Source: Candidatus Sumerlaeia bacterium
Lineage (GTDB): Bacteria; Sumerlaeota; Sumerlaeia; SLMS01; JAHLLQ01
Reading direction: 5' to 3'
DNA: 21,300 bases
NCBI GenBank assembly: GCA_033761985.1
Contig: JANRMB010000161.1
Coordinates: forward strand, 1 to 21,300
Shown here: positions 3,803 to 21,300 of the stretch, piece by piece
Layout of the letters: each line of letters starts with the position of its first letter
Numbering within the stretch: position 1 is the first letter of the stretch
The notes under the pieces: model-generated
The model's database searches: none
Told to the model about the DNA's origin: nothing
The model's input: only the letters and a program-made list of their open reading frames with translations
Position numbers and translations under genes: made by a program

Positions 3803-4076
3803 GGTGGGAAATGACCCAACTTTCAAAGAAACTGGAGCCCTACGAGCGGCTCGGCACGGGAAACAAGCAGCAAAACAAGTGGCACTGTCAACCATGTTGG
3901 GTTTTGAAGGCGAGGTTAGAAGTGTTAGAAATTCACCAATAACCCGTGAGCAGGCAAGGTACTGATTCAGTGGGTAGGGAGTATTTTGAGATCTTGATCA
4001 CCTCTCTCGGATTCTGTAATTGCCCCTCTATTTCGACGTTGAGAGAATAGAATTACCTACCGATCCAGGATTTCGC

Positions 4077-7022
4077 ATGATACACCTGCGGCGTTTCCAT
4101 TTTTGTCTCAGCAGCGTGTTTCTGTTGGCGGCTTCCGTTGCAGGTGCAGCCACGGTGGATTTGTCCAGTGCCTTGGTGCTCGCTTCGGAAAAGCTCGATG
4201 AACCCGGGGTGTTTTATCTTCAATTGAATCCGGCAAATACCTACACGGGAAGCGCCTCCATTGGTTTTCCCTTGGAACTGGATTGCAACGGTGCCGTCTT
4301 GGATCTTGCTTCCAATCAATCAGGTGGTACATTTGCCGGAATCACGATTCTACCGGATCAATTGCTGCGGATTTCCAATGGTACGGTGCAAAATGCCGAT
4401 GTGGCGCTCAACTTTATGGGGAGGAGTTCGGGAACCATTCAACAGATGAATTTCACCCAATGTGAACAAGGTATCGCGCATCCGGGGAATGGCTCCCTGG
4501 TGATCGAACAAAGCCAATTCAGCAACTTTCCCACGGGAGACACCTGGGCAGTGAACGTTGGGTATGCGGGGAATCAAGGGGCGGTACATTTGACGGTGGA
4601 ACAGATCACGGTGACTGGTCCACGATTTGGGATTCAAGCCCGCACGGGTTCAACGGTAACGGTGACGGGTTCCGAGTTTGTTGGAGCGGAACAATCGATT
4701 ACTCTCGCTGGCGGAAGCCTTGGGATCACCGGGTTGAATACGTTTTCATCCGCTTCGTTTGTCCACGTGAATGCCAGCAATTACTTTGGGGATCGACCAG
4801 TACTAACGGTGACAGGGCAGGAGTTTCAGAGTGCCCCATTTGGAATTCTTGCGACTCGTTCCATCCTGAACTGTACCAACACCGTTTTCCAAAACTGCAC
4901 TCAAGGAATTTCCATTCAAGGCGGAAGTACCACAATATCAGGTGGGGAGTTTAACTCCTCCGAGGATACCGGGGTGATTGTTCTTCCCACACAAGATGGC
5001 GAAATCCCCACGATACAGCTCACGGGGACAGTGGTGGATTCCTGTGGCGTTGGTGTTAGTGTTACCAATGGCACAACCACTATCGATGAAGCCACATTCC
5101 AAAATAACATCCAAGGGATTGTAGCCCAAGGAGGCGACCTTACCGTAACGGATTCTCTGTTGGAAGAGTTTGTGTCAAACGCGGAAACGTATGGGATTCA
5201 AGCGTTGCCTCTTAATAACCAGCGCCCAGTGGCAGCGCTCCGGAACAACACAGTTCGTGATGCGGACTTTGGTTTTCTGGGAACAAACGCCCGCGTGGTG
5301 ATTGAATCATGCTCCTTCACAGGCCATGAACAGGGTATCGCTTTGTTGCAGGGGACGGGTGACTTCGGAAACCCATCCACGATAGTGGGAAGCACAGTCC
5401 AGAATTGCAGCGCTTTTGGTGTAAACATCCCCAACGGGGGATTTGTGAAGTTGGAAGACTCCCAAATTCTCCAGTGCTACATTGGTTTGGAAGTGGAAAA
5501 CGGCGTGAGTGCGGAATTGAATTCGGTTACCATTAATGGTTTGGGGCTGGTGACACCGGGAGTGGGAATCGGTGCCATTGGCAGTGTCACTTTGGACATC
5601 GATTCCAGCACCATTCAAGGGCATCTGAACAGCGTGTATTTGGAAAAGGACTGCTTGTTTACCTCTCGGAACACAGCGTTTCTCGATCCCTGTTTTTCCG
5701 GAATAATCTTTTACGACAACACAACAATCACCGTGGAAGATAGCAGCTTTCTGCGGAATGGTCAGGATGGTATCTTCACGGATGTGGAGATAACAGAGTC
5801 TGGTGTCACACGAGTCGCACGACCCAGTTTTTCCACGGTGCGGAGGAATCTTTTTGATGAAAGCGGCATCGGAGAGATTGATCCGGATTGCTCGCGATTC
5901 AATGCCGCGGGGACAGGGATTGCTCTTTTCGGGAACGGAAACCACACCATTGAATACAATACGATTTTGCGAAGCAGAGACGTGGGAATTGCCTTGCTCA
6001 ATGGCGCCACAGCCGCCATCCGCCGAAACACGATTCAGGATAATCGGGGGACAGGGATCTTTCTCCAGAGCGCCGGAAATGCCTTGGTGGAGGAAAACGT
6101 GGTGGCCTTCCACCAAAACTCCGAACAGGCAGGCGTACAGATTTTCGGAAGCAACGGGGCGGTGTCCTTCAATCGAAATCTGGTTCATGGGAACGAGATG
6201 GGTTTGATCAATCGCCATTCTGCAGATTATCACTACTGGACTGAGAACGTGATCAGCGGTCAGGAACAGTATGGATTTCTCATCGAAGAGGGACGGGCGG
6301 ATGGAGTTCGAAACGTCTTCCTTGAAAATACCTTATATCAAATATTCAGCAGTTCCACGGAGCGCACCGGCCTCACAGGGGGAGTGATTTTTTCCACCTC
6401 GCGGCGAGGTGTCTTTACGCAATCAACCACCGCGTTCACCTATTGCGTTCAGAATTGGTGGGGTGGAACTTCGGCAATCAATGAGGCGTTCAGCGTTGTT
6501 CCCCAAGGGCGCATGGGGTACCAGAATACCGACACCACACAGTTTTTGACCTCGCCAAGGCAGGACATATTCTACTGGATTGGAAACGGTGGGAATCCAT
6601 CAGTCATCTCCTCGGGGTCAACACCCTACGCCACTCTCACCACTGGAGTTTTGTCCTCACCAAAGGAAGCCCTTGTGGTGGTACGCGATACAACAGCAGG
6701 TGCTGCACCCATTGCCCCTGCAGGAGCCTTGATTCAGACTCCCGTGCATGTGTGGTCCACACGGGAGTTTGGGCTCGCAAACAGGGGAATCATCCTCCAA
6801 TTACGGGAGACATTCGAATCCAACAACACTATTACCTTGGCTCGATTCAATTCCACCAATCAGGTTTGGGAACCCATGGGGAAGGTTCTCGGTCGAGCAG
6901 TGGGGAACGAAACGGTTTTCCTTTCCCTGTTGGAAGAGCACCAACCTCTGGGAGTCTATTACTGGATTGAACTGGACGAACCGGCAGTGGAATTCAGGTC
7001 GGGCTGGTTGATCAATGGTTGA
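4077..7022 (+). CDS. Secreted right-handed parallel beta-helix repeat protein (PbH1 / pectate-lyase-fold), about 981 aa, function unknown
   Basis: Start chosen at 'MIHLRRFHFCLSSVFLLAASVAGAATV' (ATG 4077), which gives a classic signal peptide with an AXA-type site. The body has many repeats of the G-I/V-x-x-x-x-N/S-x-x-I pattern (for example NCTQGISIQGGSTTISGGEFN, DSCGVGVSVTNGTTTIDEATFQNNIQGIVAQGG, RDVGIALLNGATAAIRRNTIQDNRGTGIFL) diagnostic of the parallel beta-helix fold. The antisense ORF 5307..6233 is rejected. Confidence 0.75.
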   Translation: MIHLRRFHFCLSSVFLLAASVAGAATVDLSSALVLASEKLDEPGVFYLQLNPANTYTGSASIGFPLELDCNGAVLDLASNQSGGTFAGITILPDQLLRISNGTVQNADVALNFMGRSSGTIQQMNFTQCEQGIAHPGNGSLVIEQSQFSNFPTGDTWAVNVGYAGNQGAVHLTVEQITVTGPRFGIQARTGSTVTVTGSEFVGAEQSITLAGGSLGITGLNTFSSASFVHVNASNYFGDRPVLTVTGQEFQSAPFGILATRSILNCTNTVFQNCTQGISIQGGSTTISGGEFNSSEDTGVIVLPTQDGEIPTIQLTGTVVDSCGVGVSVTNGTTTIDEATFQNNIQGIVAQGGDLTVTDSLLEEFVSNAETYGIQALPLNNQRPVAALRNNTVRDADFGFLGTNARVVIESCSFTGHEQGIALLQGTGDFGNPSTIVGSTVQNCSAFGVNIPNGGFVKLEDSQILQCYIGLEVENGVSAELNSVTINGLGLVTPGVGIGAIGSVTLDIDSSTIQGHLNSVYLEKDCLFTSRNTAFLDPCFSGIIFYDNTTITVEDSSFLRNGQDGIFTDVEITESGVTRVARPSFSTVRRNLFDESGIGEIDPDCSRFNAAGTGIALFGNGNHTIEYNTILRSRDVGIALLNGATAAIRRNTIQDNRGTGIFLQSAGNALVEENVVAFHQNSEQAGVQIFGSNGAVSFNRNLVHGNEMGLINRHSADYHYWTENVISGQEQYGFLIEEGRADGVRNVFLENTLYQIFSSSTERTGLTGGVIFSTSRRGVFTQSTTAFTYCVQNWWGGTSAINEAFSVVPQGRMGYQNTDTTQFLTSPRQDIFYWIGNGGNPSVISSGSTPYATLTTGVLSSPKEALVVVRDTTAGAAPIAPAGALIQTPVHVWSTREFGLANRGIILQLRETFESNNTITLARFNSTNQVWEPMGKVLGRAVGNETVFLSLLEEHQPLGVYYWIELDEPAVEFRSGWLING

Positions 7023-7084: not shown

Positions 7085-8635
7085 ATGCTCCGTAACCTGT
7101 GGTCATCCTTTCTGGCAAAACTTCGGCAAATTGCCTTTGCCACGCGTTTGGCAGTGACCCTGCTCACCCTTTTGCTCTTGGTGTTCAATCTGGCGCTTTG
7201 GGTATTGGCGGTCCGCTTGTTTCAAATTCAGGAAACCGCAAGCCGCCAAACCATTCGAGCCAGTGGAGAATTGATTTCCAAAGCGATTTCCCCAAGCGAT
7301 TTGTTCTTTCTGCAAATTGCTTATGACCCCGTATTGGAAGCCACAGACTTTGAGCGTTTGGCCATTTACCAGGACAGCACCTCCGTGGCGAACCTGCAAA
7401 ACTCCTTCGCCAAATCAGCCTCCAACGATCCAGGAAATGAAGAATCCGGAGCGTTTGAATTAGCTCTGATTACTCCGGATGGTTGGCTGGCACTGGATGC
7501 CGAAGGACTGAAACTGGAACCTGTTCTTCCCACCTATTTTGATGCAGGAGAAACTCTCGATCGCGCGAAGGACGGTTTGGTTGCCCTGTCCCCTTGGACG
7601 AATCTCTCCCCCACGGAGGAGAATAATCAGGAAGGAATTCAGCGGATTCGCCATGCCTACTTCCCCATTTTTGCCTCAGAAAGCTCGATCCTTACCAACT
7701 CCTCTGCTCCACGAACTCCGATTGCGATTCTTCAACTCAGTTATCACGAACCCGTCTCACGATTAATGCTGGTTCTCCCCCGCCGATTGTCCCTCATCGC
7801 CCTCATCAGTTTCGTGTTGGTTGTTTCCCTTTGGATCGCTTTCAACCGCATTATCAGTCGCTCACTCAAAATCCAACAAGCCGCGGAACAGGGGGACAGA
7901 CTCCGAGCATTGGGGAACTTAACCGCCGGCGTGGCACATGAAATCCGCAACCCTCTGGGAATCTTGTTACTAACTCTGGAGGAACAGCGGGCGATTGTGC
8001 GGAAGATGGAAGATTCACCCCTGAAGCAAGACCTTCAAAAACTGGAGGGCGAACTCCACAGCGAAATCAAACGCCTAGAAGACTTGAGCGAACAATTCCT
8101 CGCCTTCACACGGGGACACGTCAGCAAAAAGCGCCTTCCCCTCGATCCGCCCAAACCGTTTCGTGAACTCACTGAGCAGACAGTAAAGTTATTCTCGAAG
8201 TCCCTGGCTTCGGATATCCGCATGGACTTTCAATCCACTTTGCAACCTGAGGATAAAGCGGCGGTGAATCCCCAGGAATGGCGTCAGATTCTTCTGAATA
8301 TCCTTCAAAACTCCGCTCAGGCCATGGAGCAAAAAAAAGGGGTGATCAAGGTGGAACAATTCCGCCAAAATCATCTATTGGTGACTATCGTAAAAGATAC
8401 CGGATTAGGGATGGACAAACAAACCATCGCACGAGTTTTTGATCCCTTCTTCACCACCCGCGCCGAAGGAACCGGCCTTGGGCTTTCACTCTGCAAAAAA
8501 CTGGTGGAAGATGCACGGGGTTCTTTGGAGTTGGAAAGCGAGCCGGGCAAAGGATGCACCGTCACCATACGTATCCCGGTGTTGAATACAGAGACGTTAA
8601 ACGAGCCGAGCTTATCCGGAATCAAGTCCTACTAA
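7085..8635 (+). CDS. Sensor histidine kinase (two TM helices flanking a periplasmic sensor of about 180 aa; HisKA + HATPase_c), 516 aa
   Basis: H-box 'LGNLTAGVAHEIRNPLGIL'; N/G boxes 'LLNILQNSAQAM', 'DTGLGMD', 'GTGLGLSLCKKLVE'. N-terminal TM 'LAVTLLTLLLLVFNLALWVLAV' and second TM 'LSLIALISFVLVVSLWIAF'. An RBS-like AAGGGTAG sits upstream of the ATG at 7085. Confidence 0.9.
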   Translation: MLRNLWSSFLAKLRQIAFATRLAVTLLTLLLLVFNLALWVLAVRLFQIQETASRQTIRASGELISKAISPSDLFFLQIAYDPVLEATDFERLAIYQDSTSVANLQNSFAKSASNDPGNEESGAFELALITPDGWLALDAEGLKLEPVLPTYFDAGETLDRAKDGLVALSPWTNLSPTEENNQEGIQRIRHAYFPIFASESSILTNSSAPRTPIAILQLSYHEPVSRLMLVLPRRLSLIALISFVLVVSLWIAFNRIISRSLKIQQAAEQGDRLRALGNLTAGVAHEIRNPLGILLLTLEEQRAIVRKMEDSPLKQDLQKLEGELHSEIKRLEDLSEQFLAFTRGHVSKKRLPLDPPKPFRELTEQTVKLFSKSLASDIRMDFQSTLQPEDKAAVNPQEWRQILLNILQNSAQAMEQKKGVIKVEQFRQNHLLVTIVKDTGLGMDKQTIARVFDPFFTTRAEGTGLGLSLCKKLVEDARGSLELESEPGKGCTVTIRIPVLNTETLNEPSLSGIKSY

Positions 8636-9828
8636 AGCTCAATCAGCAAAAGCGAAATATCATCCTGCGGGTTAACCTCTTCTCCACATCCACACCATTG
8701 AGTAAGAGCATTTTCCAACGAGGGAAGCACTTGGGAGAATTCCGTGGAACGCGATTTTCCCAATTCCTCGGTTACTCGATTCGTACCCAAAAGTTCTCCC
8801 GCTCTGTTAGCCAGCTCCACTACTCCATCAGAATACAGCAACAACCGCTCGCCTGGAATCAGGGAGAGGATCTTATCTTTGAACTCAAGATCCGGGAGAA
8901 AACCGATGGGCAACTGCCCGGATTCATGGATCTTGACTTCGCCATTCGGTTGCTGCTGTATCAACGGGGGGTGCCCTGCCGAACTAAACTTGAACGTGCG
9001 CGTCTGGGTATTCAGGATCCCATACACGATGGTAAAGTACTGGCCCTCTGACTCCGCAGAAATTTGAAACCGTTGATTCAGATTCGATAAGACCTGCGCC
9101 GGGGAAAGCACATCCCATCGCGAACCAACCCGACCAAACAACGCGGAGTGATCACGTTCAGCGGAGAGCAAACGACTCAGAGTAACACTTAGCAGCGAAG
9201 AGGCAACACCGTGCCCACTAACATCGAGGAGATAAATCCCCCAACGGTTTTCACCCAGTGGCACAACGTTGAAAATATCACCAGCCAACTCTTCGCAGGG
9301 AATCAGATTCCAAGAAACTTTGAAAGGAAGGCTTTTGGCGTCTTCCAAACGGGGAAGCAGCGACTGCTGAACCCGTGCCGCCGCTCGGAGATCTTTCTTA
9401 ATCATCTCATGTGCTGACTGGAGTTCCCGATATTGGCGGCGGAGTTTGGACTCCAGTTCCAATATTCGATTGGCGGAATGGATTCTCGCGTGGAGTTCGG
9501 CTCGATCAATGGGTTTGGAAAGGAATTCATCGGCCCCTGCTTGAAAGGCCTCCAAAAGGCTTTCCTTCCCTTCCCTTACCGTAAGTAACAGCACAAACGT
9601 ATAATAGAGCTCGCGTTGGTGTGCCCGTATTTTTTGGCACAACTCCAACCCGTTAAGATGGGGCATCTCCCAATCGGTAATCACGATGGGGAATCCACCC
9701 TCCTCCAAAATAAGGGCCCACGCCTTCTCCCCGTCATCACACTCCACCACCTGATGCCCCATGTTGCGTAATGTCATGGAGAGCAACATCCGGGAGGTGC
9801 GATCATCTTCAGCAACGAGGATTCTCAT
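8632..9828 (-). CDS. Response regulator receiver domain fused to a PP2C-family (SpoIIE/RsbU-type) serine phosphatase, about 398 aa
   Basis: REC: 'MRILVAEDD...', phospho-acceptor context 'PIVITDWEMPHLNGLEL', 'LLLTVREGKE'. PP2C: 'DIFNVVPLGENRWGIYLLDVSGHGVASSLL', 'LLLYSDGVVEL'. Start is set at Met11 (ATG 9828), which forms an ATGA overlap with the Hpt stop; the track start at 9858 is less likely. The stop overlaps the HK stop by 3 nt (convergent). Confidence 0.85.
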   Translation of the reverse strand: MRILVAEDDRTSRMLLSMTLRNMGHQVVECDDGEKAWALILEEGGFPIVITDWEMPHLNGLELCQKIRAHQRELYYTFVLLLTVREGKESLLEAFQAGADEFLSKPIDRAELHARIHSANRILELESKLRRQYRELQSAHEMIKKDLRAAARVQQSLLPRLEDAKSLPFKVSWNLIPCEELAGDIFNVVPLGENRWGIYLLDVSGHGVASSLLSVTLSRLLSAERDHSALFGRVGSRWDVLSPAQVLSNLNQRFQISAESEGQYFTIVYGILNTQTRTFKFSSAGHPPLIQQQPNGEVKIHESGQLPIGFLPDLEFKDKILSLIPGERLLLYSDGVVELANRAGELLGTNRVTEELGKSRSTEFSQVLPSLENALTQWCGCGEEVNPQDDISLLLIEL

Positions 9829-10160
9829 AATGTAACGTGAGGCTCCATCATATTCCAAGTGCGCTGTGCGATGGTTTCAATAGTTTCCCAATCGATCAAA
9901 TCCCTCTCAGCGTTCAGCTCAATCAAATGAAACAACGCTGCAAGCGGCTCGGCGCCAACATTTCTACATGCACCGCGCATCCCGTGGGCCAGTTGCTTGC
10001 GCTTGGCAGTCTCTTGTGGAGCAAGTGATTTGAGTTGTTGAAGCTGCTCGAAAAGATCCTGACGAAAAGTGATCAATAATTCAGAAATGAAGGCCCGATC
10101 CCCTTCGGTAAGTTCATCCAATCGAGCAGGATTGTAAAGTTCTGCATCGGATGGGTTCAT
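9825..10160 (-). CDS. Hpt-domain histidine phosphotransfer protein, 111 aa
   Basis: 'KQLAHGMRGACRNVGAEPLAALFHLIE' fits the Hpt HxxKGxxxxxG helix motif. Size and helical composition are typical. It is translationally coupled (ATGA) to the downstream REC-PP2C gene. Confidence 0.7.
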   Translation of the reverse strand: MNPSDAELYNPARLDELTEGDRAFISELLITFRQDLFEQLQQLKSLAPQETAKRKQLAHGMRGACRNVGAEPLAALFHLIELNAERDLIDWETIETIAQRTWNMMEPHVTL

Positions 10161-15697: not shown

Positions 15698-16351
15698 TTA
15701 GTGCCGGAAGCCGCCTTTGCTTTCAGGCATCTTATGCACCATCGTGTTTGCGTACTCCACCCCAACGCCGTAGGCGCCGCTGTGCTCTTCAACGGTGGCA
15801 ATTACATCGTTGTAGGTTTCTTTGCGAGACCAGTCCCGTTGGAACTCAAGAAGGACTTGCTGCCAGGTAACGGGGATAACACCGGCCTGCACCATACGCT
15901 GCATGGCATAATCGTGGGCTTCTTTACTGGTTCCACCAGAGGCATCCGCCACGGCATAAACGTCGTAACCTGCAGCCTTGGCTTCCAAGGCGGGAAAGCA
16001 AAGACAGACCTCCGTCCAGAGAGCCGCCATAACGAGTTTTTTCCGGCCATGCTTTCTCACGGTGTCCACAAACTTGGCATCCTCCCAGGAATTCATGGAA
16101 GAACGTTCGATGATTTCCGTACCAGGAAAGACATCCTTCAACTGGGGCCAAATGTGCCCACTGAAGGACATGGTTTCCACTGCTGTAAGAACAACAGGAA
16201 CATGAAAGGTTTTGGCGGCTTTAGCCAAACCCACCACGTTATTGATCAGAGTTTGACGGTCAATATTGGCGACCCCAAACGTCATTTGGGGTTGGTGATC
16301 GATGAAGATTACCGTGCAGTTTTGCGGTGTGAGGAGTTCAAGATTGCTCAT
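15698..16351 (-). CDS. ycaC: Isochorismatase-family cysteine hydrolase (YcaC-like), 217 aa
   Basis: Starting at 'MSNLELLTPQNCTVIFIDHQ' the protein aligns end to end with E. coli YcaC (MTKPYVRLDKNDAAVLLVDHQ…). Catalytic-triad context 'VMAALWTEVCLCFPALEA' matches 'IIAGVVTEVCVAFPAL'; 'YAVADASGG' matches 'FVVTDASGT'. The ATG 12 nt upstream (16363) is probably not used. Confidence 0.85.
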   Translation of the reverse strand: MSNLELLTPQNCTVIFIDHQPQMTFGVANIDRQTLINNVVGLAKAAKTFHVPVVLTAVETMSFSGHIWPQLKDVFPGTEIIERSSMNSWEDAKFVDTVRKHGRKKLVMAALWTEVCLCFPALEAKAAGYDVYAVADASGGTSKEAHDYAMQRMVQAGVIPVTWQQVLLEFQRDWSRKETYNDVIATVEEHSGAYGVGVEYANTMVHKMPESKGGFRH

Positions 16352-16647
16352 GACGTAACCCATTCCTTGAAAGTCGATGAATTTGTTTCAATTTATGAGT
16401 AAATCCGTAGACGAAGAAGACGAGATAAACCACTAGCCTATAGGAGAATAAATCGATAGCCCTTTTGGATCGCTTCAATCCCATCCACCCTATCTGAACG
16501 CCATCTCACCCGCGAAGTGATGGTAAAATCGGTTGAAATAGGGGAAATCCACCAAAAGGAATGCATCAACACGTACATCCCAATCATGGAATCGTTCTAC
16601 GCCATCAATTGTCTTGCTCCACCCCATCCCCAATCCTGAGCATTCAA

Positions 16648-16672
16648 AATAAATTCGGTGTGAATAAATTCG
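16648..16672. promoter_or_regulatory. Tandem direct repeat AATAAATTCG-n5-AATAAATTCG about 100 bp upstream of the flotillin start; candidate transcription-factor (for example response-regulator) binding site
   Basis: Exact 10-bp repeat at 16648-16657 and 16663-16672 (15-bp periodicity), located in the 370-bp intergenic region upstream of the flotillin gene. Confidence 0.3.
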
Positions 16673-16772
16673 CTCCTTTGGAGTAGTGTCGGCGGTGAAT
16701 CCAAGGCCGATGCAACCATCCCAATCGGGTTATGCCTTTTTACACCCAAACCAATTAGGGGAATCCAGTTCG

Positions 16773-18866
16773 ATGAGTCTTTCCAATTTCTTTTCACTAT
16801 TCAAACGTGTCCGCACGGGTCAGGCGATTGTCCGCACCGGCATGGGAGGCCTGCATGTCTCTTTTGATGGCATTATGGTTATTCCGTTTTTCCATCTTTA
16901 TGAGACCATGGACATCTCATTGAAGCGCGTGGAAATTGAACGCGTGGGGAAAAACGGCTTGATTTGTAAGGATAACATGCGTGCCGACATCAAGGTTGCA
17001 TTCTTTGTTCAGGTGAATCGAACCAAGGAGGATGTGCTGCGCGTGGCGGGATCCGTGGGGTGTGCCCGTGCCTCAGACCCCGAAAAACTGACCGAACTCT
17101 TCGATGCCAAGTTCTCCGAGGCTCTCAAAACCGTGGGGAAACACTTCGAGTTCGTGGAACTCTACAACAGCCGCGAACGCTTCAAGGAAGAGATCCTCAA
17201 GATTATTGGTCGCGATCTGAACGGTTACTTTCTCGACGACGCCGCCATCGATTATCTTGAGCAGACCGACAAAGATATCCTCTCCATGGATAACATCCTG
17301 GATGCCGAGGGGATCAAGAAAATCACTCAGCTCACGGCAATAGAAGCCATGCAGGCCAACAACATTGAGCAGGAAAAAAACAAAACCATCACAAAGCAAA
17401 ACGTGGAAGCGGAAGAAGCCATTCTACAATTGAACCGCCAACTGGAGGAAAAGAAGGCGATTCAACAGCGGGAGATCTTCTCCATCCGCGCCCGCGAGGA
17501 AGCCGAGACCAAGAAAATTCAGGCGGAGGAACGCAAGAAGTTCGAAACCGCCCGCATCTCTGCCGATGAGGAAATCGAAATAGCCCAACAGAACAAGGAA
17601 CGCCAAGTTCTTGTGGCGATGCGCAGCAAAGAGGGCACCGATGCCGTGGAGCAGGAACGCGTCATTCGTGCGCGTGATCTGGAAATCAATGAACGCGAAC
17701 GTATTGTAACCATCGCCCAAATTGAAAAAGACAAAGCGGTGGAAGCCGAGAAGAAAGAAATTCAGGAGATCATCCGCGAACGCGTAGTAGTGGAAAAAGC
17801 CGTGGTGGTGGAAGAGGAAGCGATTAAAACAACACGCTCCAAAGCCCAGGCGGATCGCGAAAAACTCGTCGCCTTAACCAAGGCAAGCGAAGAGGCGGAA
17901 GAATCCCTGATACTGGAAGTCAAAAAAGCCGAAGCTCTCAACGAAGCGGCAAACCTCAACGCCAAACGCGTGGTGGTGGAAGCCGAAGCAGAGCAACTCG
18001 CCAGTGCGAAAAAAGCAGAGGCAATCAAAACACTCGCCGATGCGAAAGCCGCGGAAGCCGCTGTGGCTGGTTTGGCCGAAGCCAACGTGATGCAGGCCAA
18101 AGCAACAGCACACTTGAAAGAAGGCGAAGCCCAGGCCGTAGTTTTGGAACGCATGGCCACAGCAGAAGCAAAAGGCATTCAAGTAAAAGCAGAAGCCAAG
18201 CGCCTGGATGGAGCCGCCGAAGCCGAAGTACTCCGCGTGAAGCAGGAAGAAGAAGCCAAAGGATTGATGGCCAAAGCGGAGGCGATGGAAAAAGAGGGGA
18301 CAGTGGAAGCCGCCGTACTTGCCAAGAAGTACCTTGCCGAAGCCGAGGGCATCAGCCAGAAAGCCGACGCCATGAAGAAACTCGACGGCGTGGGGCAAGT
18401 GCACGAGGAATTCAAACTTCGTCTTGCGAAAGAGAAGGAAGTGGAACTCGCCCAAATCGCGATTCAAGTGGATATGGCCAAATCCCAAGCCGAAGTTCTC
18501 GGCGAGGCGTTGCGTTCTGCAAAAATCGAAATCGTGGGCGGAGAAACACAGTTCTTCGATCGAATCGCTGGAGCCATCACCCGTGGGAAAGCCGTGGATC
18601 GTTTGGTGGAAAACAGCACCGTTATCGATCAGGTTCGCCAGGGATTGATCGGTAATGAAGGGGAAAATCTCGCCAAGCTCCGCGAGGTGATTTCCACCAT
18701 GGGATTGAAGGCAGCCGATGTTCGTGATTTGAGTGTTGCAGCAGTATTGGCTCAAATGATTGCGAAGGCGGATAACTCCGAATTGAAAAATACCCTCGTG
18801 GATCTTCTCACCGTTGCTGGAGAAAAAGGCGTCGCCTCAAAACCTGCAGCTTCGTTCATCAGCTAA
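16773..18866 (+). CDS. Flotillin-family SPFH (band-7) domain protein with a long EA-rich coiled-coil region, about 697 aa
   Basis: SPFH core 'QAIVRTGMGGLHVSFDGIMVIPFFH...ISLKRVEIERVGKNGLICKDNMRADIKVAFFVQV', then about 300 aa of E/A/K repeats (flotillin 'EA repeats', for example AEAEAEQLASAKKAEAIKTLADAKAAEAA). The C-terminal 'KIEIVGGETQFF...GAITRGKAVDRL' matches the flotillin C-terminus (KITLVSSGSG...GEVLDILTRL). Start is set at 'MSLSNFF' (ATG 16773, AGGGGAA 11 nt upstream). No N-terminal TM helix is evident. Confidence 0.85.
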   Translation: MSLSNFFSLFKRVRTGQAIVRTGMGGLHVSFDGIMVIPFFHLYETMDISLKRVEIERVGKNGLICKDNMRADIKVAFFVQVNRTKEDVLRVAGSVGCARASDPEKLTELFDAKFSEALKTVGKHFEFVELYNSRERFKEEILKIIGRDLNGYFLDDAAIDYLEQTDKDILSMDNILDAEGIKKITQLTAIEAMQANNIEQEKNKTITKQNVEAEEAILQLNRQLEEKKAIQQREIFSIRAREEAETKKIQAEERKKFETARISADEEIEIAQQNKERQVLVAMRSKEGTDAVEQERVIRARDLEINERERIVTIAQIEKDKAVEAEKKEIQEIIRERVVVEKAVVVEEEAIKTTRSKAQADREKLVALTKASEEAEESLILEVKKAEALNEAANLNAKRVVVEAEAEQLASAKKAEAIKTLADAKAAEAAVAGLAEANVMQAKATAHLKEGEAQAVVLERMATAEAKGIQVKAEAKRLDGAAEAEVLRVKQEEEAKGLMAKAEAMEKEGTVEAAVLAKKYLAEAEGISQKADAMKKLDGVGQVHEEFKLRLAKEKEVELAQIAIQVDMAKSQAEVLGEALRSAKIEIVGGETQFFDRIAGAITRGKAVDRLVENSTVIDQVRQGLIGNEGENLAKLREVISTMGLKAADVRDLSVAAVLAQMIAKADNSELKNTLVDLLTVAGEKGVASKPAASFIS

Positions 18867-18874
18867 TTCACTCT

Positions 18875-18907
18875 ATGTCCCCCTTTGGCAATTTCCAAAA
18901 GGGGACA
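18875..18907 (+). other. Strong stem-loop (11-bp stem TGTCCCCCTTT / AAAGGGGGACA, 11-nt loop) in the 80-bp gap between flotillin and the downstream gene
   Basis: Seen directly. It is not followed by a U-tract (next bases CAGATATCGACTT), so it is more likely an intercistronic processing, stability or attenuation element than a terminator. Confidence 0.4.
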
Positions 18908-18946
18908 CAGATATCGACTTAGGCCCAAGGAGGTAATGTGGCAACC

Positions 18947-21300
18947 ATGAGCGTGGAGACAAAAGAGTCGGTTGTGCTGGAAGGCGGAACATACGAAATC
19001 CTCCGCAAGCGCCTGCAGGATCACGCCAAGGATCTTCAGTCGCGGGTGAACGCCCTCAATAGCGAGCGTAAAGCGGTGTTCGGTTCCATCGAGCCCAAAT
19101 TGCTCGCCACGGAACGCATCACCACGGAAAATAACTGCACCCCAAGGGACATCGCTGCCTTGGGGGACACGTTCCTCTTCGCCTACAACGTGCAATTCGG
19201 ACTCAAGTCCACCACAGAGCTTGCAGATGTTTTTTCCGTCTATGAATTGAAGGAAAGTACGTTTGAAGCCCGCCCCCTCTCGCTGCTACAAGATGCCCAG
19301 TTCCTTGCGGATTTCAACAACCTCTACAAGTACTACAAGCACACATTCTTCGATCGCTTCTTTGTGGTGGGGCCCAATCTGTATATGGTTTTCCGCATCG
19401 GAAAATCCCCCACAGACCTCAAGGCGTTCAAGTGGCTCATTACTCCAGAGAAAACACTGAAGTACATCGACAACCGATCTGACCACGAATACGTCTTCCC
19501 CACCCAGCATGAGTTTCAGTGGAAGCGCACCTCCAGAGATCATTATCGGGATGGTCGGCACCCACACATTTCGATTGAAGATCGCGTATTCGTTGAGTGC
19601 GTCGGTGGTGATCTCACCATCAAAATTGAGGATAACACTGAAGTTGGAAAAGGGATTTTCAGCGAACCCGTCAATGACCCGGAGCAAAAACTAGACGACG
19701 CGGAAATTCACTACGCAGTCGTGGGGCATCTAATCCTCTTTAAGATTAAACCCTACCGCGAACTCGCCTACCGTTATTACATCTATAACGAGAAAATCCA
19801 CGAAGCAGGTCGATTTGATGAAATCGCCGATTCCTGCGTGATGCTTCCTGATGACCAGGGATTGATTTTCCCCAACGGCTTTTATTTGGTCTCCGGCGAT
19901 TACAAACGATTCGATTTCAAGCTGGAGAAGATGCTCTTTGAGCGGCGCATCACTTCACCCAACGGCGAAGATACACTGTATGTTTTCTACAATCGTGAGT
20001 CCGGGCTTTTCCTGCTCCTGAGCTATAACCTTATCGATCAATCGGTGAAAACTCCGATTCAGTGCCAAGGGTATGCCTTTTTTCACCAAGGAGAGATGCT
20101 TTACTTCCGAGCGGAAAGCTCCCCACAAAAGCACCATGCTGTGCAAGTGTGGCAAACCCCGTATGTGTGCCCCGACTATGTGCCGCCCGTGGAGCAAAAA
20201 AGTTTTCTTTTCAAAATAGGCAACAAAGACATCGTTCGTGCCATGGCGGAAAGCCAGAACATCATCAACCTAACCCAGCGCGAGGACTCCTACCAAAGCC
20301 TTTACGATGATATCTACGCGCTGAGTGTTTCCGTTCTGGATTCCTACTTCTGGATCAACAATCCCGAGGCGCACAACCTGGGCGAGGCGCTGGCCAACGT
20401 TCGGGATTCCGCCTCCGCCGCGATTGATGAATTCGACAAAGTTCGCCTCATTCGGAAGACCACCGCAGACCGAATCGGAGAAGTTCAAACAAGGGCCGAG
20501 AAGCTCCTCAAATCCATCAAACCTGAACTCATGGAACGAGTGGATGCCTTTGTGGGAAGCCTCTCCCAGTTGCGCACACTGCGGGGTGAAATCATCGCAT
20601 TGCGCGAACTTCGCTATGCGGATCTCAACACAATCCAATCCTTGGAAACCCGTGTGGTGGAGCAGTCTCAGAAACTCTCCGAAGCCACCGTGGAGTTCCT
20701 TCTCAAACCCGATGCCCTGAGCGTGTACCACGAAAAAGTGGAAGCCGTGAATGCCAAAACCACGGGAATGCAACGCGCTGTGGAAGCCAAGGATATCGAG
20801 GAGGAAATCACCACCATCTCCAAAGAAGTGGAAACCATGATTGAAGTCGTCGGGAATTTGAAAATTGCCGATGCCACCAAATCCACGCAAATCATCGATG
20901 GTTGCTCCGCCATTTTCACGCGACTCAATACGGTACGGGCAGAGCTTCGCAACCGGAAGAAAAAACTCCAAAGTGTGGAAGCTGTGGCGGAATTCAACGC
21001 CCAACTCAAACTGCTGGATCAAAGCGTGGTGAGCTATCTGGATATCGCAGACTCACCGGCGAAATGCGATGAGTATCTCAACAAACTCCTGGTGCAGTTG
21101 GAGGAATTGGAAGGCCGGTTTGCGGATTTTGAAGAGTACGTGATTCAACTTTCCGAAAAGCGCGCCGAGCTGACCAGTGCGATGGAATCCCGCAAGCTTG
21201 CCTTGCTCGAGGAAAAAAACAAACAAGCCACGGGGTTTCAAGCCGCAGCAGACCGCATTCTGAAAGCAATCGCCGGCCGTGTGGATGCCTTCAAATCCAT
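18947..21300 (+). CDS. Large conserved-hypothetical protein, 5' part (at least 784 codons; continues past the window end). N-terminal globular, beta-rich half of about 470 aa and C-terminal coiled-coil half of at least 300 aa. Not in the ORF track because it has no in-window stop.
   Basis: Reading frame 2 is free of stop codons from 18938 to 21300; every line was checked codon by codon. A consensus SD AAGGAGG (18927-18933) precedes GTG at 18938 and ATG at 18947 (MSVETKESVVLEGGTYEILRKRLQ…). Composition is protein-like. The C-terminal part is heptad-rich (…LRTLRGEIIALRELRYADLNTIQSLETRVVEQSQKLSEATVEF…LVQLEELEGRFADFEEYVIQLSEKRAELTSAMESRKLALLEEKNKQ…). No Walker A/B, GTPase or other catalytic motif is recognisable. 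The antisense ORFs 20270..21022 and 20668..21009 are rejected. Confidence 0.75.
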   Translation, partial: MSVETKESVVLEGGTYEILRKRLQDHAKDLQSRVNALNSERKAVFGSIEPKLLATERITTENNCTPRDIAALGDTFLFAYNVQFGLKSTTELADVFSVYELKESTFEARPLSLLQDAQFLADFNNLYKYYKHTFFDRFFVVGPNLYMVFRIGKSPTDLKAFKWLITPEKTLKYIDNRSDHEYVFPTQHEFQWKRTSRDHYRDGRHPHISIEDRVFVECVGGDLTIKIEDNTEVGKGIFSEPVNDPEQKLDDAEIHYAVVGHLILFKIKPYRELAYRYYIYNEKIHEAGRFDEIADSCVMLPDDQGLIFPNGFYLVSGDYKRFDFKLEKMLFERRITSPNGEDTLYVFYNRESGLFLLLSYNLIDQSVKTPIQCQGYAFFHQGEMLYFRAESSPQKHHAVQVWQTPYVCPDYVPPVEQKSFLFKIGNKDIVRAMAESQNIINLTQREDSYQSLYDDIYALSVSVLDSYFWINNPEAHNLGEALANVRDSASAAIDEFDKVRLIRKTTADRIGEVQTRAEKLLKSIKPELMERVDAFVGSLSQLRTLRGEIIALRELRYADLNTIQSLETRVVEQSQKLSEATVEFLLKPDALSVYHEKVEAVNAKTTGMQRAVEAKDIEEEITTISKEVETMIEVVGNLKIADATKSTQIIDGCSAIFTRLNTVRAELRNRKKKLQSVEAVAEFNAQLKLLDQSVVSYLDIADSPAKCDEYLNKLLVQLEELEGRFADFEEYVIQLSEKRAELTSAMESRKLALLEEKNKQATGFQAAADRILKAIAGRVDAFKS

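What the first reader, a model, noticed from the sequence alone, without database searches (positions are those of the whole stretch)
16648..21300. Flotillin plus an unannotated giant coiled-coil protein: candidate two-gene system missed by the ORF track
A gene of at least 784 codons starts 80 bp after the flotillin stop, behind a textbook AAGGAGG SD. It runs uninterrupted to the window edge, so the six-frame track, which requires an in-window stop, does not list it. Its product has no motif I can assign. It has a globular, beta-strand-rich N-terminal half (…YMVFRIGKSPTDLKAFKWLITPEK…, …GFYLVSGDYKRFDFKLEKMLFERRITSPNGEDTLYVFYNRESGLFLLLSYNL…) followed by hundreds of residues of heptad coiled coil. 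The upstream flotillin is itself atypical: it has no membrane anchor and a eukaryote-like layout. The pair shares a 370-bp upstream region carrying a tandem 10-bp direct repeat and is separated by a structured hairpin rather than a terminator. A soluble SPFH scaffold with a giant coiled-coil partner is not a described bacterial module (known partners are NfeD/YqiJ-type). This is the most likely site of a new system, possibly membrane-remodelling or stress/defence.
Basis: partly seen in the sequence, partly recalled or inferred. Interest (0 to 1): 0.8.

Follow-up and report, generated by a model that had tools for sequence, protein, structure and literature searches.

The report
Flotillin with its beta-propeller AAA+ ATPase partner
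The long unlisted gene next to the flotillin is real, but it belongs to a catalogued family (DUF3686, a beta-propeller and helical rod that ends in an AAA+ ATPase in full-length relatives), its pairing with flotillin was already reported by comparative genomics in 2024, and this copy is unusual only because it has lost the flotillin's membrane anchor and the usual YqiJ partner gene.

Summary
A YqiK-type flotillin gene ends at 18866. An open frame of 784 codons starts 80 nt later and runs off the window.

Most of the interpretation does not hold. The downstream protein matches Pfam DUF3686 (E 6e-187) and DUF7902. Its N-terminal half models as a beta-propeller followed by helical bundles. Full-length relatives are 1,600-1,900 aa and end in an AAA+ ATPase module.

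The linkage to flotillin is real. In 65 genomes with enough upstream sequence, 60-61 have a flotillin ortholog directly upstream on the same strand. Of 62 loci, 56 also have a YqiJ/NfeD-like membrane protein. Bacteroidota add CesT-PspA, and pQBR103 adds a yjfI-pspA cluster.

This operon was already described by Ravi et al. 2024 (PMC11237479). No experiments exist.

The window copy is an abbreviated variant. It has no YqiJ-like gene, and its flotillin lacks the N-terminal TM helix that all 62 complete orthologs, E. coli YqiK and about 116 of the 120 closest homologs carry.

Most likely function (inferred, not shown): a cytoplasmic ATPase working on or at the flotillin scaffold in envelope-stress handling. 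The 'DNA repair' name is unsupported. Nothing points to a defence system.

The parts
16648..16672 (+). Two exact copies of AATAAATTCG (16648-16657 and 16663-16672, 15-nt spacing) in the region upstream of the flotillin gene. Function unknown; a possible regulator or promoter element.
   Evidence: the repeat finder; no sigma-70-like promoter found in 16300-19100.
16686..18866 (+). YqiK-type flotillin (SPFH2) gene. The longest ORF starts at GTG 16686. The start best supported by homology is ATG 16773 (697 aa). It lacks the N-terminal TM helix that its orthologs have.
16806..17249 (+). SPFH/Band_7 domain of the flotillin (residues 12-159 counted from ATG 16773).
   Evidence: Pfam PF01145, E 2.5e-8, 34.6 bits.
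17460..18450 (+). Ala/Glu/Lys-rich helical 'flotillin' region (approximate limits). Residues 231-560 are A 20%, E 19%, K 12%. ATPase-linked flotillins are about 150 aa longer than E. coli YqiK, and the extra length lies beyond YqiK residue ~438.
   Evidence: median ortholog length 710 aa.
18876..18908 (+). Intercistronic stem-loop (about 12 pairs, 6-nt loop) with no T-tail. It is not an intrinsic terminator by the consensus scan and occurs only once in the window.
18927..18933 (+). AAGGAGG Shine-Dalgarno-like motif, 13 nt before ATG 18947 and 4 nt before the in-frame GTG 18938.
18947..21300 (+). 5' part (784 codons, about 45%) of the gene for the beta-propeller / helical-rod / AAA+ ATPase ('DNA repair ATPase' in NCBI naming). 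It is cut by the window edge.
19031..20350 (+). DUF3686 domain (residues 29-468). It is modelled as a beta-propeller with about seven four-stranded blades; the blade count is my reading of the DSSP strand list.
   Evidence: Pfam E 6.4e-187; AF2 model pLDDT 86; Foldseek hits to WD40/DCAF1, CyRPA, PON1 and prolyl-oligopeptidase propellers.
20711..20962 (+). DUF7902 helical domain (residues 589-672) inside the helical rod.
   Evidence: Pfam E 1.4e-22.

Best explanation
The region holds an abbreviated copy of a widespread, conserved envelope-associated operon. The canonical order is yqiJ-like (NfeD-type membrane protein), then a YqiK-type flotillin, then a cytoplasmic protein of about 1,750 aa built of a beta-propeller (DUF3686), a helical rod (including DUF7902) and a C-terminal AAA+ ATPase. 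This operon is often extended by CesT/YjfI-PspA genes.

Proposed mechanism (inferred, not shown):

1. The flotillin oligomerises into a cytoplasm-facing SPFH ring or cage on the inner membrane, as solved SPFH complexes do.

2. The ATPase has no TM segment or signal peptide. It docks on or next to this scaffold through its propeller and rod, and oligomerises through its AAA+ module.

3. It uses ATP to remodel protein assemblies at that site. The target could be the flotillin/PspA scaffold itself or proteins held by it. The role would be the ATP-dependent arm of membrane-stress handling.

In this genome the 5' end of the operon is missing. There is no yqiJ-like gene, and the flotillin begins where the TM helix of its orthologs ends. 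The pair here is therefore either a derived anchor-less variant or a copy on its way to decay.
For: Shown:

- Family assignment of both proteins.
- Full-length architecture: DUF3686 + DUF7902 + AAA/AAA_5 at about residues 1280-1405, total 1,620-1,906 aa.
- An invariant Walker A (PPGYGKT) and conserved Walker-B and sensor-like motifs in 70 homologs.
- Synteny: a flotillin directly upstream on the same strand in 60-61 of 65 loci, and YqiJ-like in 56 of 62, across Planctomycetota, Bacteroidota, Verrucomicrobiota, Desulfobacterota, Omnitrophota, Eubacteriales and Gammaproteobacteria.
- PspA, CesT-like, XRE-S24 and PLD neighbours. pQBR103 has a yjfI-pspA-...-SPFH-ATPase cluster.
- The ATPase has essentially no hydrophobic segments, so it is cytoplasmic.
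- The same operon was reported independently by Ravi et al. 2024.
- Truncation: 62 of 62 complete orthologs, YqiK and about 116 of the 120 closest database homologs have the TM helix. The window gene does not, and no upstream frame encodes one. No YqiJ-like ORF was found in the six-frame translation of the window.

Inferred from established knowledge:

- SPFH proteins form membrane-attached cages that organise AAA+ or protease partners (HflK/C-FtsH; QmcA-YbbJ; cited in PMC13086221).
Against: - No experiment exists on any member of this family.
- Physical contact between the flotillin and the ATPase is untested.
- The AAA+ clade is unresolved. PDB sequence matches cover only about 38 residues around the P-loop. 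The AF2 model of the module is poor (pLDDT 69) and has no significant structural match. Whether it threads substrates or acts like MoxR/dynein-type remodelers is therefore unknown.
- Walker B is DD rather than DE, so ATPase activity may be low or regulated.
- About 5 of 65 loci have the ATPase without a neighbouring flotillin.
- In the window itself the AAA+ part is not visible, and the flotillin lacks both its anchor and YqiJ, so this particular copy may not work like the canonical system.
Confidence: 0.55

Rival explanations
1. Client-directed chaperone or unfoldase. The flotillin platform only concentrates damaged or unassembled membrane-associated proteins. The ATPase binds them through its propeller and unfolds or extracts them. 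This follows the logic of HflK/C-FtsH but without a protease domain. The scaffold itself is not the substrate.
For: SPFH scaffolds are known to corral AAA+ proteases. S. aureus FloA-NfeD stabilises unfolded proteins (literature cited; PMC11222466 listed). Beta-propellers are common substrate- or peptide-binding modules. CesT-type chaperone genes are neighbours.
Against: No pore-loop or threading signature could be established. No protease or partner chaperone is conserved in the operon. This rival is not separable from the main explanation with sequence data.
Confidence: 0.25
2. The window copy is a decaying remnant. A deletion removed yqiJ and the 5' end of the flotillin gene, so the remaining ORFs are no longer a working system in this organism.
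For: All complete orthologs have the TM helix and most have YqiJ. The window has neither, and the ORF begins within the position of the TM helix.
Against: Both reading frames are intact over 697 and 784 codons. They align end to end with orthologs at 45-58% and 49-55% identity and keep the family-invariant residues. Plausible start codons with purine-rich SD-like motifs exist. There is no composition break. L003, L022 and L046 also lack a recognisable YqiJ-like gene but keep the pair.
Confidence: 0.2
3. Anti-phage or conflict system. The ATPase would be a sensor or effector, and the flotillin would carry out membrane-directed abortive infection.
For: Patchy distribution across phyla with high identity suggests horizontal transfer. 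Copies occur on megaplasmids. XRE-S24 repressor-like, PLD/HKD and DUF559 endonuclease-like genes occur nearby in some loci.
Against: PADLOC gave only a weak LmuB match confined to the helical rod. There are no phage copies. About 50% identity is retained across phyla, which is unlike fast-evolving defence genes. Flanking genes in the window and most loci are housekeeping genes, not defence islands. The recurrent neighbours are envelope-stress genes.
Confidence: 0.08
4. A DNA-repair ATPase of the SMC/SbcC/RecN type, as the Pfam and NCBI names say.
For: The names are 'ATPase involved in DNA repair' and 'DNA repair ATPase'. The long helical region gives weak matches to LmuB and to a synaptonemal-complex protein.
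Against: There is no P-loop in the first 784 aa. The N-terminus is a beta-propeller, not an ABC head. The only NTPase is a C-terminal AAA+ module. The matches are confined to helical low-complexity segments. The genomic context is membrane-related in every phylum. My inference is that the name was carried over from coiled-coil similarity.
Confidence: 0.03

Closest known systems
PSP-associated operon of Ravi et al. [quoted passage not shown]
   Same: The flotillin and ATPase families are the same, in the same gene order and on the same strand. I rebuilt the same operon independently in Bacteroidota loci, including the divergent cHTH-S24 regulator. The paper also notes abbreviated flotillin/YqiJ(/ATPase) operons.
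   Different: The window has no PspA, CesT or YqiJ gene, and its flotillin has no TM helix. The paper gives no Pfam name and no experiments. Its mechanism is a general 'chaperone-like / membrane dynamics' proposal.
E. coli yqiJ-yqiK and B. subtilis yuaF-floT (SPFH2-NfeD2 operons; Hinderhofer et al. 2009, PMC2636767)
   Same: The flotillin is a clear YqiK homolog (E 3e-45). Canonical relatives of the window operon carry a YqiJ_N-type membrane protein upstream.
   Different: E. coli has no third gene. ATPase-linked flotillins are about 150 aa longer. The window copy lacks both the anchor and YqiJ.
HflK/C-FtsH (and prohibitin-m-AAA, QmcA-YbbJ): SPFH cages organising an AAA+ or protease partner
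   Same: It pairs an SPFH scaffold with a dedicated AAA+ protein encoded or acting together. This supplies the working analogy for the mechanism.
   Different: FtsH is a membrane-anchored classical-clade AAA protease enclosed on the periplasmic side. The ATPase here is soluble, has no protease domain, has a propeller and rod N-terminal to one AAA+ module, and is not homologous to FtsH beyond the P-loop region. There is no evidence that it sits inside a cage.
Vps4/CdvC acting on ESCRT-III (PspA/Vipp1/Snf7 superfamily)
   Same: An AAA+ ATPase is genomically linked to a membrane-remodelling scaffold. PspA is in the same operon in about 20 of the 80 loci and in pQBR103.
   Different: There is no MIT domain, and no demonstrable Vps4-type (meiotic clade) AAA signature. 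The linkage is tighter to flotillin than to PspA.
MoxR / AAA_5 (dynein-related) chaperone-like ATPases
   Same: The Pfam AAA_5 profile aligns over nearly its whole length (positions 2-126 of 139) and passes its cut-off. The motif layout (Walker B followed by a Q/H-x-x-P-E segment, then an 'NP...R' segment) resembles MoxR-type modules by my reading. Some sources name fragments 'MoxR-like ATPase'.
   Different: No VWA partner gene is present. The PF00004 match is equally strong over the P-loop half. The structure model is too poor to place the clade.

Membership tests
Flotillin / YqiK-type SPFH2 proteins | SPFH (Band_7) domain | tested here: met
   PF01145, E 2.5e-8, 34.6 bits > 23.6 on the N-terminal 276 aa. 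The full-length protein gives no hit, presumably because of compositional bias in the A/E-rich half.
Flotillin / YqiK-type SPFH2 proteins | Sequence homology to a named member through the SPFH and coiled-coil regions | tested here: met
   32% identity over 433 aa with E. coli YqiK, E 3e-45. The closest database homologs are named 'flotillin family protein' or 'YqiK'.
Flotillin / YqiK-type SPFH2 proteins | N-terminal membrane anchor (TM helix or hairpin) | tested here: not met
   Maximum hydropathy is 1.25, against 2.98 for YqiK and >=1.6 in 62 of 62 complete orthologs. No hydrophobic ORF lies upstream in any frame.
Flotillin / YqiK-type SPFH2 proteins | NfeD/YqiJ-type gene in the same operon | tested here: not met
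   A profile of 57 YqiJ-like neighbours found nothing in the six-frame translation of the window (best E 1.3). The gene could lie beyond the window.
DUF3686-type beta-propeller / rod / AAA+ ATPase ('DNA repair ATPase' of NCBI) | DUF3686 domain at the N-terminus | tested here: met
   PF12458, E 6.4e-187, profile positions 1-448 of 448. 49-56% identity to homologs over 99% of the fragment.
DUF3686-type beta-propeller / rod / AAA+ ATPase ('DNA repair ATPase' of NCBI) | DUF7902 within a helical rod after the propeller | tested here: met
   PF25472, E 1.4e-22; helices 420-783 in the model.
DUF3686-type beta-propeller / rod / AAA+ ATPase ('DNA repair ATPase' of NCBI) | C-terminal AAA+ module with Walker A/B | not testable with these tools
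   The window ends at codon 784, whereas the module lies at about residues 1280-1405 in full-length relatives. The contig could not be extended.
Flotillin-ATPase envelope operon (Ravi et al. 2024) | Flotillin gene immediately upstream of the ATPase gene, same strand | tested here: met
   80-nt spacer in the window. The same arrangement occurs in 60-61 of 65 loci.
Flotillin-ATPase envelope operon (Ravi et al. 2024) | CesT/Tir-PspA dyad in the extended form | tested here: not met
   No tblastn hit of PspA or CesT-like cluster members in the window. These genes are optional in the published description.
SMC/SbcC/RecN-type DNA-repair ATPases | N-terminal ABC-type Walker A head separated from a C-terminal head by an antiparallel coiled coil | tested here: not met
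   No P-loop in residues 1-784. The N-terminus is a beta-propeller. The NTPase in relatives is AAA+.
Known anti-phage defence systems (PADLOC-DB 2.0) | Significant match of either protein to a defence-system model | tested here: not met
   Only LmuB at E 1.9e-6 to 4.7e-5, confined to the helical rod; nothing for the flotillin.

The most novel reading that the evidence does not exclude
The propeller-rod-AAA+ protein is the missing ATP-driven remodeller of bacterial membrane scaffolds. It would assemble or disassemble flotillin cages and/or PspA (ESCRT-III-type) polymers during membrane repair, playing the role Vps4 plays in archaea and eukaryotes. In this genome, an anchor-less flotillin would be a soluble cage protein brought to the membrane only through that machinery.
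Probability: 0.15. Interest if true: 0.75.

Novelty: new member of a known kind. Interest (0 to 1): 0.35.

Why it matters
SPFH/flotillin scaffolds are found in all domains of life, and several are now known as membrane cages that organise AAA+ machines. What bacterial flotillins do mechanistically is still open. A dedicated, highly conserved ATPase partner would give a direct experimental handle on flotillin and PspA dynamics. It keeps about 50% identity from Planctomycetota to Bacteroidota to Gammaproteobacteria and forms 254 clusters at E<=1e-30.

This window adds little to that question. It is another instance of an operon already noted in 2024. Two practical points do follow:

- The 'DNA repair ATPase' label that annotation pipelines propagate has no support in the domain layout or the genomic context.
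- An anchor-less, YqiJ-less flotillin variant exists, which could be a natural separation-of-function allele if it is expressed.

Tried and rejected
- Exact-sequence look-ups of the flotillin with three alternative starts found no contig.
- Two metagenome scans found nothing: an exact 44-mer from the window end, and a synonymous-degenerate pattern for the unusual flotillin N-terminus. The ORF could therefore not be extended, and no second anchor-less copy was found.
- Literature searches for 'DUF3686', 'PF12458', and 'flotillin' + 'DNA repair ATPase' gave 0 papers. The relevant paper was found only through PspA/CesT/band-7/propeller terms.
- PDB sequence searches found no relatives of the propeller-rod or the flotillin. 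They found only P-loop-level matches for the AAA module.
- The AF2 model of the AAA module was poor (pLDDT 69, core poorly modelled), and Foldseek found nothing significant, so clade assignment was abandoned.
- Rfam gave no hit in the window.
- The hairpin arm is not a repeated element in the window.
- The terminator and promoter consensus scans were not above the shuffle background.
- The NCBIfam SlaB hit (E 0.003, 16 bits against a 700-bit cut-off) was dismissed as helical-region noise.
- The Foldseek top hit to IFT-A (TM 0.11) was considered as a 'coat-protein-like' lead. I rejected it as too weak, because only the propeller matches generic propellers.
Full report
**1. What is in the sequence**

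The ORF list shows a 726-codon ORF at 16686..18866 (+). It shows nothing after it on the + strand. Translating from ATG 18947 gives 784 codons with no stop up to the window edge.

The spacer is 80 nt. AAGGAGG lies at 18927-18933. In-frame starts are GTG 18938 and ATG 18947.

The spacer folds into a stem-loop of about 12 pairs at 18876-18908 (centroid -20.6 kcal/mol). It has no T-tail and is not called as a terminator.

The decamer AATAAATTCG occurs twice, at 16648 and 16663.

The rest of the window holds unrelated housekeeping-type genes: ThrRS, a beta-helix protein, a histidine kinase, a response regulator-SpoIIE phosphatase, pyrophosphatase, an MFS transporter, an amidohydrolase, an SDR and an isochorismatase. 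There is no composition break around the pair.

**2. The upstream gene is a YqiK-type flotillin that has lost its anchor**

- The whole protein gives no Pfam hit. Its N-terminal 276 aa match Band_7/SPFH above the curated cut-off.
- It aligns with E. coli YqiK at 32% identity over 433 aa (E 3e-45). The alignment starts at YqiK residue 29, directly after YqiK's TM helix.
- Hydropathy confirms the absence of an anchor: maximum 1.25, against 2.98 for YqiK.
- This is not a property of the family. All 62 complete orthologs next to DUF3686 genes have an N-terminal TM helix. The six without one are cut by contig ends.
- About 116 of the 120 closest homologs in the 5.8-billion-protein collection also have the helix.
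- In a multiple alignment, the window protein's first residues (SLSNFFSLFKRV) align with the last turn of that helix and the basic stretch after it.
- No upstream frame encodes a hydrophobic peptide.

The simplest reading is a 5' truncation, not a 'eukaryote-like layout'.

**3. The downstream gene belongs to a catalogued family**

- The 784-aa fragment matches Pfam DUF3686 ('ATPase involved in DNA repair', E 6.4e-187, residues 29-468) and DUF7902 (E 1.4e-22, residues 589-672).
- Homologs are about 50-56% identical over the whole fragment. Sources name them 'DNA repair ATPase' or 'AAA family ATPase'.
- The propeller domain alone finds 735 clusters (50% identity) at E<=1e-3 and 254 at E<=1e-30 among 1.84 billion representatives.
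- An AlphaFold2 model built on a 20-sequence alignment (mean pLDDT 86, pTM 0.65) shows an N-terminal helix, a beta-rich domain (about 50-405), and then helices of 15-58 residues separated by short loops.
- Foldseek against the PDB matches the beta domain to beta-propellers: the DCAF1 WD40 domain, CyRPA, paraoxonase and the prolyl-oligopeptidase propeller. From the strand list I count about seven four-stranded blades (my inference).
- The helical part is a rod of bundles rather than one long heptad coiled coil.
- In 70 genomic loci the complete ORF is 1,620-1,906 aa.
- Pfam finds a single AAA+ module at about residues 1280-1405. PF00004 matches the P-loop half, and AAA_5 matches over nearly its full length.
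- The module has an invariant PPGYGKT Walker A, a YLDDIQH Walker B and a conserved 'MAGNPYTE...DMLANRAD' segment.
- The window fragment contains no P-loop.
- No PDB relative exists by sequence, except for about 38 residues around the P-loop of p97/VCP-type ATPases.
- My model of the AAA module was too poor to place its clade.

**4. The linkage is real and conserved, and the operon normally has three genes**

A scan of one genome per species found at least 586 relatives. I kept 80 loci with up to 10 kb on each side.

- A flotillin ortholog (45-62% identity to the window's) lies directly upstream on the same strand in 60-61 of the 65 loci that have more than 2.5 kb upstream.
- Clustering all neighbouring ORFs showed a third conserved gene upstream of the flotillin in 56 of 62 loci. 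It encodes a membrane protein of about 225 aa with 2-5 TM segments that matches Pfam YqiJ_N.
- Bacteroidota loci add PspA, a CesT/YbjN-like protein and a divergent XRE-S24 regulator. Some loci add a PLD/HKD protein.
- On the P. fluorescens megaplasmid pQBR103 the pair closes a ten-gene cluster: yjfI-pspA-rhomboid-DUF2491-DUF350-DUF1190-GspS-like-hypothetical-SPFH-'DNA repair ATPase'.
- The window has no YqiJ-like, PspA or CesT-like gene.
- There are no copies in phage genomes.
- PADLOC gives only a rod-confined LmuB match.

**5. Prior knowledge**

- Hinderhofer et al. 2009 defined SPFH2 (flotillin-like) operons with YqiJ/YuaF-type NfeD partners. They do not mention an ATPase (PMC2636767).
- Ravi et al. 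[quoted passage not shown]
- The same paper states that abbreviated operons with flotillin, YqiJ and sometimes the ATPase are widely distributed.
[quoted passage not shown] This is the arrangement I rebuilt independently.
- I found no experimental work on the ATPase.

**6. How it most likely works**

Shown:
- the family identities;
- the cytoplasmic nature of the ATPase (no hydrophobic segments);
- tight synteny with an anchored flotillin and a YqiJ-type protein;
- recurrent association with PspA-type envelope-stress genes.

Inferred: SPFH proteins form membrane-attached rings or cages that organise partner machines (HflK/C-FtsH; QmcA-YbbJ). By that analogy, the flotillin provides the platform. 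The ATPase docks through its propeller and rod, oligomerises through its AAA+ module, and uses ATP to remodel protein assemblies at that site. The target could be the scaffold (flotillin or PspA) or proteins held by it. I cannot separate these two targets with sequence data.

The 'DNA repair' name is contradicted by the domain layout and by the context. It probably came from coiled-coil similarity (my inference).

For the window copy, the missing anchor and missing YqiJ leave two possibilities. It may be a derived, still-functional soluble variant, or an operon decaying from its 5' end. Both ORFs are intact and keep the family-invariant positions. That argues against advanced decay but does not settle the point.

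**7. Side observation**

The flotillin-ATPase spacer is significantly structured in the window (z -3.2 against mononucleotide shuffles). The same holds in 15 of 31 orthologous loci with 30-300-nt spacers, and several of those have z below -4. A terminator-less stem-loop there could set the flotillin:ATPase ratio. This is untested. The dinucleotide-shuffle z for a slightly longer window stretch was only -1.5.

**8. Verdict**

The pair is a genuine, conserved and experimentally untouched module, but it is neither family-less nor undescribed. The window instance is an abbreviated member that lacks the anchor and YqiJ.

- Novelty: new member of a known kind.
- Interest: 0.35.

Noticed in passing
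window 18867-18946; L016, L019, L025, L028, L029, L031, L043, L044, L045, L051, L080 (flotillin-ATPase spacers): The intergenic spacer between the flotillin and the ATPase gene is strongly structured in the window (z -3.2) and in 15 of 31 orthologous loci (several z < -4). There is no T-tail in the window. It may be a conserved-in-kind intercistronic stem-loop that sets the expression ratio.
   Followed up: partly
L011 9373-9912, L018 9536-9958, L020 9536-9958, L023 9341-9898: In Hymenobacter loci a small DUF559 (Vsr-like endonuclease fold) gene sits between the flotillin and the ATPase gene. It looks like an inserted selfish or mobile gene, not a system component.
   Followed up: partly
L082 (P. 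fluorescens SBW25 plasmid pQBR103, record 84437-97641): The megaplasmid carries a ten-gene cluster on one strand: yjfI, pspA, a rhomboid protease, DUF2491, DUF350, DUF1190, a glutathionylspermidine-synthase-like gene, a hypothetical gene, SPFH, and the 'DNA repair ATPase'. This is a plasmid-borne envelope-stress supra-operon in a genetically tractable host.
   Followed up: partly
L055 9986-12784 and L077 116-2917: Two loci have DUF3686 ORFs of only 932-933 aa. L055 also lacks the flotillin. These may be split genes, frameshifts or pseudogenes.
   Followed up: no
L008 (C-terminus of the 1865-aa ORF); proteins P0280, P0293, P0329: Some family members carry extra repeats: TPR near the C-terminus in L008, TPR families listed for P0280 and P0293, and ankyrin families listed for P0329. 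This suggests variable partner-binding ends.
   Followed up: no
AAA module of homologs (e.g. L007 13643-14812): Walker B is an invariant D-D (YLDDIQH) rather than D-E. The segment after it resembles MoxR/AAA_5 modules, while the P-loop half resembles classical AAA. The clade is unresolved.
   Followed up: partly
window 16686-18866 compared with L081 4865-6523 (E. coli yqiK): ATPase-linked flotillins (median 710 aa) are about 150 aa longer than YqiK (553 aa). The extra length is in the A/E-rich helical region and the C-terminal tail. This could mean a taller cage or a docking tail for the ATPase.
   Followed up: no
window 7085-8635 (+) and 8632-9858 (-): A histidine kinase gene and a convergent response-regulator-SpoIIE (PP2C phosphatase) gene overlap by 4 bp at their 3' ends. 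A 1000-aa right-handed beta-helix protein gene lies just upstream (4020-7022).
   Followed up: no
window 17073-18755 (- strand ORFs of 98-293 aa): Several long antisense ORFs lie inside the flotillin gene. They are probably artefacts of the A/E/K-rich, purine-skewed coding sequence (AT skew up to 0.52).
   Followed up: no
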